From assembly GCF_003334335.1 (NCBI RefSeq), contig NZ_QOWQ01000015.1: 64,000 nucleotides of DNA; one strand, written 5' to 3'. Under the pieces are notes generated by a model. It did not search any database and had not been told where the DNA came from. It saw nothing but the letters and a program-made list of their open reading frames with translations. The position numbers and the translations under genes are program-made. Numbering within the stretch: position 1 is the first letter of the stretch; each line of letters starts with the position of its first letter. This stretch comes from Escherichia coli. Lineage in GTDB: Bacteria > Pseudomonadota > Gammaproteobacteria > Enterobacterales > Enterobacteriaceae. Of this stretch, positions 22,690 to 22,716 are shown piece by piece.

Positions 22690-22716
22690 AGATGGGGGGG
22701 ATTTTGAGGGTTTCAA
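22690..22716 (-). promoter_or_regulatory. Sigma-32 heat-shock promoter of hslVU
   Basis: Minus strand reads TTGAAA-(13)-CCCCATCTA matching sigma-32 consensus CTTGAAA...CCCCATNT; the -35 overlaps the ftsN stop codon. Confidence 0.6.

What the first reader, a model, noticed from the sequence alone, without database searches (positions are those of the whole stretch)
22690..22716. hslVU sigma-32 promoter overlaps the ftsN stop codon
The heat-shock promoter elements for hslVU (TTGAAA and CCCCATCTA on the minus strand) span 22690..22716, while ftsN terminates at 22713..22715. The -35 hexamer therefore lies over the ftsN stop, and the 92 bp spacer also contains a GC hairpin (22648..22667) in the hslV 5' UTR. 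ftsN read-through transcription would run directly into the promoter of the protease operon.
Basis: partly seen in the sequence, partly recalled or inferred. Interest (0 to 1): 0.25.

Follow-up and report, generated by a model that had tools for sequence, protein, structure and literature searches.

The report
Known hslVU heat-shock promoter overlapping ftsN stop
This is the well-studied E. coli heat-shock (sigma-32) promoter of the hslVU protease operon, whose -35 box does contain the stop codon of the upstream cell-division gene ftsN; the layout is real and conserved in nearly all enterobacteria sampled, but its parts are already published.

Summary
The window here is identical to E. coli K-12 MG1655 ftsN–hslVU. 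On the minus strand, TTGAAA (22716..22711), a 13-nt spacer and CCCCATCTA (22697..22689) form a full sigma-32 consensus. It is unique in the 64 kb (0.02 expected by chance). The ftsN stop TGA (22715..22713) lies inside the -35 hexamer, and the intergenic gap is 92 bp.

- RpoH dependence and a -10 point mutant (Lien 2009).
- A capped-RNA start site at window 22681, which fits the sigma-32 -10.
- The 5'UTR hairpin, which is Rfam family RF02401 and stabilises the mRNA.
- An ftsN-hslV-hslU read-through transcript, seen by long-read RNA sequencing.

My own addition is comparative. In 67 of 80 related genomes, covering six enterobacterial families, ftsN ends with the same TGA inside TTGAAA. These genomes have no terminator between ftsN and the promoter. 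Vibrionaceae and Budvicia keep the two apart, with a separate hairpin between them. So the UTR hairpin may double as a leaky ftsN terminator.

Verdict: real, ordinary, already known; low interest.

The parts
22713..23672 (-). ftsN coding sequence (319 aa, ends ...CIRLAAGG*)
   Evidence: ORF list; annotated ftsN b3933 in MG1655; sequence identical to MG1655
22713..22715 (-). ftsN stop codon TGA, bases 2-4 of the -35 hexamer
   Evidence: same register in 67 of 80 related loci
22711..22716 (-). sigma-32 -35 hexamer TTGAAA (-35..-30 relative to the mapped start)
   Evidence: invariant in 45 of 45 aligned Enterobacterales
22698..22710 (-). 13-nt spacer CCCTCAAAATCCC. Its last three C plus the first four of the -10 form the C7 run 22700..22694.
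   Evidence: 1-bp and 2-bp deletions in this run arose in heat-evolved E. coli lines (PMC7750951; PMC10044804)
22689..22697 (-). sigma-32 -10 element CCCCATCTA
   Evidence: a C-to-T mutant lowers expression and largely removes heat induction (PMC2681174)
22685..22690 (-). TATAAT overlapping the 3' end of the sigma-32 -10. It lies 20 nt from TTGAAA and at -9..-4 of the mapped start, so it is not the -10 used for that start.
   Evidence: no sigma-70-type promoter found by the scan; an rpoS mutation has no effect
22681..22681 (-). hslVU transcription start (A), giving a 61-nt 5'UTR
   Evidence: SMRT-Cappable-seq operon 4120362..4122348, reverse strand, in both table entries (PMC6131387 supplementary file 3); coordinate offset 4099667 checked
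22656..22675 (-). 5'UTR stem-loop CCCCGTAC-TTTT-GTACGGGG (+7..+26), followed by TTTGTACTCTG
   Evidence: folding; Rfam structure; covariation, 93% of cells paired and 6 of 7 pairs with compensatory changes; shown to stabilise the mRNA (PMC2681174)
22618..22675 (-). match to Rfam RF02401 'ClpQY_promoter': hairpin, leader, Shine-Dalgarno AAGGGG (22633..22628) and GTG
   Evidence: 63.6 bits against a gathering score of 42, E = 3e-13
22090..22620 (-). hslV coding sequence (176 aa, GTG start)

Best explanation
This is PhslV, the sigma-32 (RpoH) heat-shock promoter of the hslVU (clpQY) protease operon. It sits so close behind ftsN that the ftsN stop codon TGA is part of the -35 hexamer TTGAAA.

Shown steps:
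- Sigma-32 holoenzyme uses TTGAAA, a 13-nt spacer and CCCCATCTA.
- Transcription starts at window 22681.
- The transcript has 5 unpaired nucleotides and then an 8-9 bp GC stem-loop. This 5'-proximal hairpin protects the message from decay.
- Transcripts from the ftsN and cytR promoters either end after ftsN or continue through the promoter and hairpin into hslVU.

Inferred steps:
- The overlap is an old compaction of the gene boundary, kept since the common ancestor of most Enterobacterales.
- Because the -35 is under strong selection, it fixes TGA as the ftsN stop and the T of the last Gly codon.
- Nothing suggests that the overlap itself is a regulatory device.
For: - Full consensus, unique in the window, 0.02 expected by chance.
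- Start site at 22681 gives canonical geometry (with for the coordinates).
- rpoH dependence, heat induction and the -10 point mutant (PMC2681174).
- Fusions with 141 bp or 478 bp of upstream DNA express almost equally, so nothing further inside ftsN is needed.
- The hairpin is Rfam RF02401, shows covariation, and deletion, disruption and restoration experiments tie it to mRNA stability.
- The hairpin starts 12-14 nt after CCCCATNT in 53 of the 69 relatives that have one, as expected for a 5'-proximal stabiliser.
- ftsN-hslV-hslU and cytR-ftsN transcripts are both reported.
- The promoter is conserved: 66 of 80 loci match 13 of 13 consensus positions and 79 of 80 match at least 11.
- The TGA-in-TTGAAA register occurs in 67 of 80 loci, with FtsN identity falling to about 31-40% in the most distant ones.
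Against: - Lien 2009 gives the start site as 71 nt upstream of GTG (window 22691). That lies inside CCCCATCT and disagrees by 10 nt with the capped-RNA start at 22681. I take the latter as correct because it fits the promoter geometry.
- A genomic SELEX study lists the hslV/ftsN spacer in its RpoS table. I found no other mention of hslV in that paper, so pure holoenzyme binding data do not single out sigma-32 there.
- Nothing here tests whether the overlap has a function of its own.
Confidence: 0.92

Rival explanations
1. Dual-use hairpin. The 5'UTR stem-loop is also the intrinsic, leaky terminator of ftsN. The hslVU promoter then lies inside the ftsN 3'UTR, and partial read-through gives hslVU a sigma-32-independent basal supply. 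This adds to the main explanation rather than replacing it.
For: - The overlap lineages have no room for a terminator between the ftsN stop and the -35.
- Where stop and -35 are apart, most spacers carry their own hairpin. In Photobacterium and Vibrio it is a canonical terminator, for example GGATGC..GCATCC-TTTTCTTTTT.
- 38 of 69 relatives have at least 5 T in the 8 nt after the UTR hairpin. 15 have at least 6, for example the Tatumella species (L039, L060) and Candidatus Pantoea persica (L072) with T7.
- A cytR-ftsN unit that ends after ftsN and an ftsN-hslV-hslU unit are both reported.
Against: - In E. coli the tail is UUUGUACU, and the terminator scan does not call the site.
- Term-seq under three conditions lists no sense-strand 3' end for ftsN or in the hslV leader.
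- I could not find the coordinate of the cytR-ftsN 3' end.
- An efficient terminator at +7..+35 would also cut hslVU transcripts.
Confidence: 0.35
2. The overlap is a selected regulatory coupling. RNA polymerase reading out of ftsN occludes or dislodges sigma-32 holoenzyme at PhslV, linking division-gene transcription to the level of the protease that degrades the division inhibitor SulA.
For: - The arrangement is conserved across six enterobacterial families.
- GGG just upstream of TTGAAA is invariant even where ftsN ends elsewhere.
- Read-through transcripts exist.
- That HslVU degrades SulA comes from the cited literature (Kanemori 1999, listed), not from a test here.
Against: - Conservation is explained more simply by selection on the promoter alone. 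The same promoter works in Budvicia, Vibrionaceae and two Pantoea without any overlap.
- The 141-bp and 478-bp fusions behave alike, though neither carries an ftsN promoter.
- There are no data on interference.
Confidence: 0.08
3. The functional promoter here is a sigma-70 or sigma-S promoter that uses the perfect TATAAT (22690..22685), and the sigma-32 match is secondary.
For: - TATAAT, preceded by C as sigma-S prefers, overlaps the -10.
- An RpoS holoenzyme SELEX peak lies in the hslV/ftsN spacer.
- Residual basal expression remains in rpoH mutants.
- C-run deletions that shorten the 20-nt TTGAAA-TATAAT gap arose in heat-adapted strains, and the authors of one study proposed that they shift the promoter toward sigma-70.
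Against: - The 20-nt spacing is too long for sigma-70, and the scan finds no sigma-70-type site.
- An rpoS mutation, and a mutation in the putative RpoS -10, have no effect.
- The mapped start at 22681 puts TATAAT at -9..-4, which is too close.
- TATAAT is absent in Erwiniaceae, which keep the sigma-32 boxes.
Confidence: 0.07
4. The hexamers are a chance match with no promoter function.
For: None beyond the fact that consensus matches alone prove nothing.
Against: 0.02 matches expected per window; conserved in 79 of 80 relatives; genetic and start-site evidence.
Confidence: 0.01

Closest known systems
E. coli hslVU (clpQY) heat-shock promoter PhslV, first described by Chuang et al. 1993 (cited as reference 1 in PMC2681174) and dissected by Lien et al. 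2009
   Same: It is this very locus. The sequence is identical to MG1655, with the same -35 and -10 boxes, the same rpoH dependence and the same leader.
   Different: Nothing differs in the sequence. The published 71-nt leader length disagrees with the 61 nt implied by capped-RNA mapping. I did not find the stop-codon/-35 overlap or its phylogenetic spread discussed in the papers I read.
Rfam RF02401 ClpQY_promoter (cis-regulatory 5'UTR element)
   Same: Full-length match at 63.6 bits, with the same 8-bp stem, leader and Shine-Dalgarno sequence.
   Different: The Rfam model starts at the hairpin and does not include the sigma-32 boxes or the ftsN stop.
5'-terminal stabilising stem-loops such as the ompA and papA leaders
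   Same: A GC-rich hairpin lies a few nucleotides from the 5' end. Removing it shortens mRNA life, and a different sequence with the same fold restores it. Lien et al. make this comparison themselves.
   Different: Here the hairpin also lies at the end of the upstream gene's transcript, and in many relatives it carries a T-rich tail like a terminator.
Overlapping transcription units and operon variants produced by terminator read-through (SMRT-Cappable-seq, Yan et al. 2018)
   Same: The ftsN-hslV-hslU, cytR-ftsN and hslV-hslU-menA-rraA variants are shown for exactly this region.
   Different: That study does not analyse the sequence basis, namely the promoter inside the ftsN 3' end and the absence of a separate terminator.

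Membership tests
sigma-32 (RpoH) dependent heat-shock promoter | -35 element TTGAAA | tested here: met
   Exact TTGAAA at 22716..22711; invariant in 45 of 45 aligned relatives
sigma-32 (RpoH) dependent heat-shock promoter | -10 element CCCCATNT at 12-16 nt from the -35 (the window I searched) | tested here: met
   CCCCATCT at 22697..22690 with a 13-nt spacer; relatives have 13 or 14 nt
sigma-32 (RpoH) dependent heat-shock promoter | Transcription start about 6-9 nt downstream of the -10 | tested here: met
   Published capped 5' end at 4122348 = window 22681, 8 nt after the last base of CCCCATCTA. Lien 2009 states 71 nt upstream of GTG, which does not fit.
sigma-32 (RpoH) dependent heat-shock promoter | Expression depends on rpoH and rises on heat shift | not testable with these tools
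   From the literature only: lacZ fusions and northern blots in rpoH, rpoS and double mutants, and a -10 C-to-T mutant (PMC2681174)
Rfam RF02401 ClpQY_promoter | Score at or above the curated gathering threshold over the full model | tested here: met
   63.6 bits against 42, model positions 1-57 of 57
Rfam RF02401 ClpQY_promoter | Stem-loop kept by compensatory changes | tested here: met
   93.3% of cells paired; 6 of 7 pairs have changes on both sides; covariation score 0.370 against 0.202 in shuffles (0 of 500 reach it); slid controls reach at most 0.12
Intrinsic (Rho-independent) terminator, for ftsN | GC-rich stem-loop directly followed by a U-rich tract | tested here: inconclusive
   The stem is present at -14.5 to -16.5 kcal/mol. 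The E. coli tail is TTTGTACT and the scan does not call it. 38 of 69 relatives have at least 5 T in 8, and 15 have at least 6.
Intrinsic (Rho-independent) terminator, for ftsN | Mapped RNA 3' end at the U tract on the sense strand | tested here: not met
   No ftsN or hslV sense-strand 3' end in the Adams 2021 Term-seq tables; the only entry is on the opposite strand at window 22680. A cytR-ftsN unit exists, but I did not find its end coordinate.

The most novel reading that the evidence does not exclude
After Budviciaceae branched off, the ancestor of most Enterobacterales lost the separate ftsN terminator and fused the ftsN stop codon into the -35 box of PhslV. Since then the hslVU 5'UTR stabiliser hairpin has doubled as a leaky ftsN terminator. 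Its U-tract strength varies between genera and sets how much division-gene transcription spills into the SulA-degrading protease operon. The invariant GGG upstream of TTGAAA would be a lineage-specific extension of the -35 element rather than a protein constraint on the FtsN tail.
Probability: 0.25. Interest if true: 0.3.

Novelty: already known. Interest (0 to 1): 0.12.

Why it matters
It matters little beyond annotation. The locus is a clean textbook case of a promoter nested in the end of the preceding gene, where one TGA serves as both stop codon and -35 bases.

Practical points:
- Any edit to the ftsN C-terminus or its stop codon, such as C-terminal tags or scarless deletions, will hit PhslV and change hslVU expression.
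- The C7 run between the boxes is a recurrent indel target in heat-adaptation experiments.
- The published 71-nt leader length should probably read 61 nt.

Tried and rejected
- **Outer helix.** A helix pairing TTGCA near +1 with TGCAA just before the Shine-Dalgarno sequence appeared in several minimum-energy folds. Only 70% of cells pair and there is little covariation, so I rejected it as a conserved structure.
- **GGGGG-TTGAAA-CCCCC inverted repeat.** It would put the stop codon in a hairpin loop. The right arm is not kept outside Enterobacteriaceae, so I rejected it.
- **Sigma-70 promoter.** The scan finds none in 22300..23100.
- **Start-site and 3'-end data that gave nothing:**
  - Nonaka 2006 (PMC1522074) and PMC4288677, the id I tried for Thomason 2015, are not held.
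  - The Cappable-seq 2016 supplements have no hit for my coordinate prefixes.
  - Dar and Sorek 2018, the 3'-UTR valves paper and Conway 2014 hold no supplement text.
  - The TERMITe supplements do not mention either gene.
- **cytR-ftsN 3' end.** I could not find its coordinate in the SMRT-Cappable-seq tables.
- **ftsN stops from BLAST.** My first extension of BLAST segments was unreliable for L065, L069, L077 and L080. I rechecked them. L065 and L069 really do end 84-99 nt upstream, and the symbiont copies are decayed.

Full report
**What is there.** The stretch around the finding is E. coli ftsN–hslV. A 601-nt query matches all 5426 complete E. coli genomes. Window 21933..23833 is base-for-base identical to MG1655 NC_000913.3 4121600..4123500, so window coordinate plus 4099667 gives the genome coordinate. 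All features lie on the minus strand:
- ftsN runs 23672..22713 and ends GGG GGT TGA (Gly-Gly-stop).
- hslV starts with GTG at 22620.
- The gap between them is 92 bp.

**Checking the observation.** TTGAAA is at 22716..22711, followed by a 13-nt spacer CCCTCAAAATCCC and then CCCCATCTA at 22697..22689. The pattern TTGAAA-N12-16-CCCCATNT occurs once in the 64-kb window, exactly at 22716..22690. Dinucleotide-preserving shuffles give a mean of 0.02 matches. The ftsN stop TGA at 22715..22713 is bases 2-4 of the -35 hexamer.

One detail is wrong. The real stem-loop CCCCGTAC-TTTT-GTACGGGG is at 22675..22656 and folds at -14.5 kcal/mol.

**What it is.** It is the known sigma-32 promoter of hslVU (clpQY). 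Lien et al. 2009 (PMC2681174) showed the following:
- clpQ::lacZ fusions and the native transcript need rpoH, not rpoS, for basal and 42 C expression.
- A C-to-T change within CCCCATCT lowers expression 1.7-fold at 30 C and largely removes heat induction.
- Fusions with 141 bp or 478 bp of upstream DNA express almost equally.

SMRT-Cappable-seq (PMC6131387, supplementary file 3) lists the hslV-hslU operon on the reverse strand as 4120362..4122348 in both table entries. The capped 5' end is therefore window 22681. That places TTGAAA at -35..-30 and CCCCATCT at -16..-9, and gives a 61-nt leader. This is the geometry expected of a sigma-32 promoter (expected spacing from my own knowledge of dnaK and groE promoters). 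It disagrees with the '71 bp upstream' stated by Lien et al., which would put +1 inside the -10. I regard 61 nt as correct.

A perfect TATAAT at 22690..22685 overlaps the -10. It lies 20 nt from TTGAAA and at -9..-4 of the mapped start, and the sigma-70 scan calls nothing here.

**The hairpin.** The leader from the hairpin to the GTG (22675..22618) is a full-length match to Rfam RF02401 'ClpQY_promoter', at 63.6 bits against a gathering score of 42. Lien et al. showed that deleting or disrupting the stem lowers mRNA level and half-life, and that a different sequence with the same fold restores the mRNA level.

I aligned 45 enterobacterial leaders and counted pairs on them:
- 93% of cells in the stem are paired.
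- 6 of 7 pairs show compensatory changes.
- No shuffle out of 500 reaches the observed covariation score, and slid controls fall to 0.12 or less.

In 69 of 80 relatives a strong GC-closed hairpin starts 12-20 nt after CCCCATNT, most often at 13 nt. That leaves about five unpaired nucleotides at the 5' end, which fits a 5'-proximal stabiliser.

**Read-through.** The SMRT-Cappable-seq paper shows this very region. It reports an ftsN-hslV-hslU operon variant, a cytR-ftsN unit and an hslV-hslU-menA-rraA read-through variant.

**What the comparison adds.** I fetched 80 loci encoding close HslV relatives. ftsN is the upstream neighbour in all of them, though it is decayed in three symbionts.
- The sigma-32 boxes match 13 of 13 consensus positions in 66 loci and at least 11 of 13 in 79.
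- In 67 loci a long ftsN frame ends with TGA in exactly the same register inside TTGAAA. These span Enterobacteriaceae, Erwiniaceae, Pectobacteriaceae, Yersiniaceae, Hafniaceae and Morganellaceae (family assignment from my own knowledge of the genera).
- In those loci the protein ends ...C-I-x-x-x-x-G-G (R-G in three), and FtsN identity to E. coli falls to about 31-40% in the most distant ones.

The 13 exceptions are two Budvicia, two Pantoea, five Vibrionaceae, one Aestuariibacter and three symbionts with decayed ftsN. Outside the symbionts, the stop lies 18-400 nt upstream of the -35. Most of these spacers carry their own hairpin, and in Photobacterium and Vibrio it is a canonical terminator with a T-rich tail.

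So the overlap lineages have no terminator between ftsN and the promoter. The only hairpin available lies downstream of the hslVU start. In 38 of 69 relatives it is followed by at least 5 T in 8 nt, and in 15 by at least 6. This suggests that the stabiliser hairpin doubles as a leaky ftsN terminator. For E. coli itself the evidence is mixed:
- The tail is only UUUGUACU, and the scan does not call the site.
- Term-seq lists no sense-strand 3' end here.
- Yet a cytR-ftsN unit that stops after ftsN is reported.

The three G directly upstream of TTGAAA are invariant in all 45 aligned sequences. That includes Budvicia and the two Pantoea, where ftsN ends elsewhere. This points to a nucleotide-level constraint rather than a need for the Gly-Gly tail.

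**Mechanism and status.**
- Shown, by the sequence here and by published genetics and RNA mapping: sigma-32 promoter use, the start site, the stabilising hairpin and the read-through transcripts.
- Inferred: the overlap is a passive, ancient compaction. Selection on the -35 fixes the ftsN stop as TGA and the last codon as GGT.
- Not shown: any regulatory role for the overlap itself, or termination of ftsN at the hairpin.

**Verdict.** Every functional element is already in the literature or in Rfam. The order-wide conservation of the stop/-35 fusion and the missing ftsN terminator are modest additions. Interest is low.

Noticed in passing
window 22680, + strand (genome 4122347): Adams et al. 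2021 Term-seq lists a 3' end on the strand opposite to hslV/ftsN, 5 nt past the same palindromic hairpin (...GTACGGGGCATAA), classed as antisense to ftsN with a low read count of 1381. It implies an antisense transcript coming out of hslV that ends, or is trimmed back to, the hairpin.
   Followed up: partly
window 22681 against 22691, - strand: The published leader length of 71 nt (Lien 2009) conflicts with the capped 5' end at 4122348, which gives 61 nt (SMRT-Cappable-seq). The 71-nt figure would place +1 inside the -10 element.
   Followed up: yes
window 22694..22700 (C7 run) and 22685..22690 (TATAAT), - strand: The homopolymer C7 that bridges the spacer and the -10 lost 1 bp in two rescued populations at 43 C (reported as -74/+19, which is window 22694) and 2 bp in the heat-evolved BM28 strains. 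Such deletions bring TTGAAA to 19 or 18 nt from the overlapping perfect TATAAT. The BM28 authors suggest a shift from sigma-32 to sigma-70 control. A genomic SELEX study also lists an RpoS holoenzyme peak in this spacer.
   Followed up: partly
window 22717..22719, - strand; alignment A1 columns 8-10: GGG immediately upstream of TTGAAA is invariant in 45 of 45 Enterobacterales, including Budvicia and two Pantoea where it is non-coding. The third base of the penultimate codon of ftsN (Gly in most loci) is therefore invariant. Vibrionaceae have C-rich sequence here instead.
   Followed up: partly
L078 about 1270..1430 (Vibrio sp. Hep-1b-8), between ftsN and the hslV promoter: A long tandem array of the heptamer CTCGCCT (about 25 copies) sits directly upstream of the hslV -35 box.
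   Followed up: no
L047 about 1335..1475 (Pectobacterium zantedeschiae); also L028 and L038: The 5'UTR hairpin keeps its GC base (CCCCG...CGGGG) but carries an insertion of about 120 nt in the loop that folds on its own (-53 kcal/mol for the whole hairpin). L028 and L038 have inserts of about 45 nt. Photorhabdus species have a distinct, extended 43-nt hairpin.
   Followed up: no
L075 (Candidatus Gullanella endobia), L077 (Candidatus Hartigia pinicola), L080 (Pantoea sp. Nvir symbiont): ftsN looks decayed, with only N-terminal fragments aligning. L077 and L080 still keep a perfect sigma-32 promoter preceded by GGGG. L075 has lost the promoter match (8 of 13).
   Followed up: no
window 22706..22721, - strand: GGGGG-TTGAAA-CCCTC (CCCCC in most Enterobacteriaceae) is an inverted repeat that would place the ftsN stop codon in a hairpin loop. 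The right arm is not conserved in other families, so it is probably incidental.
   Followed up: yes
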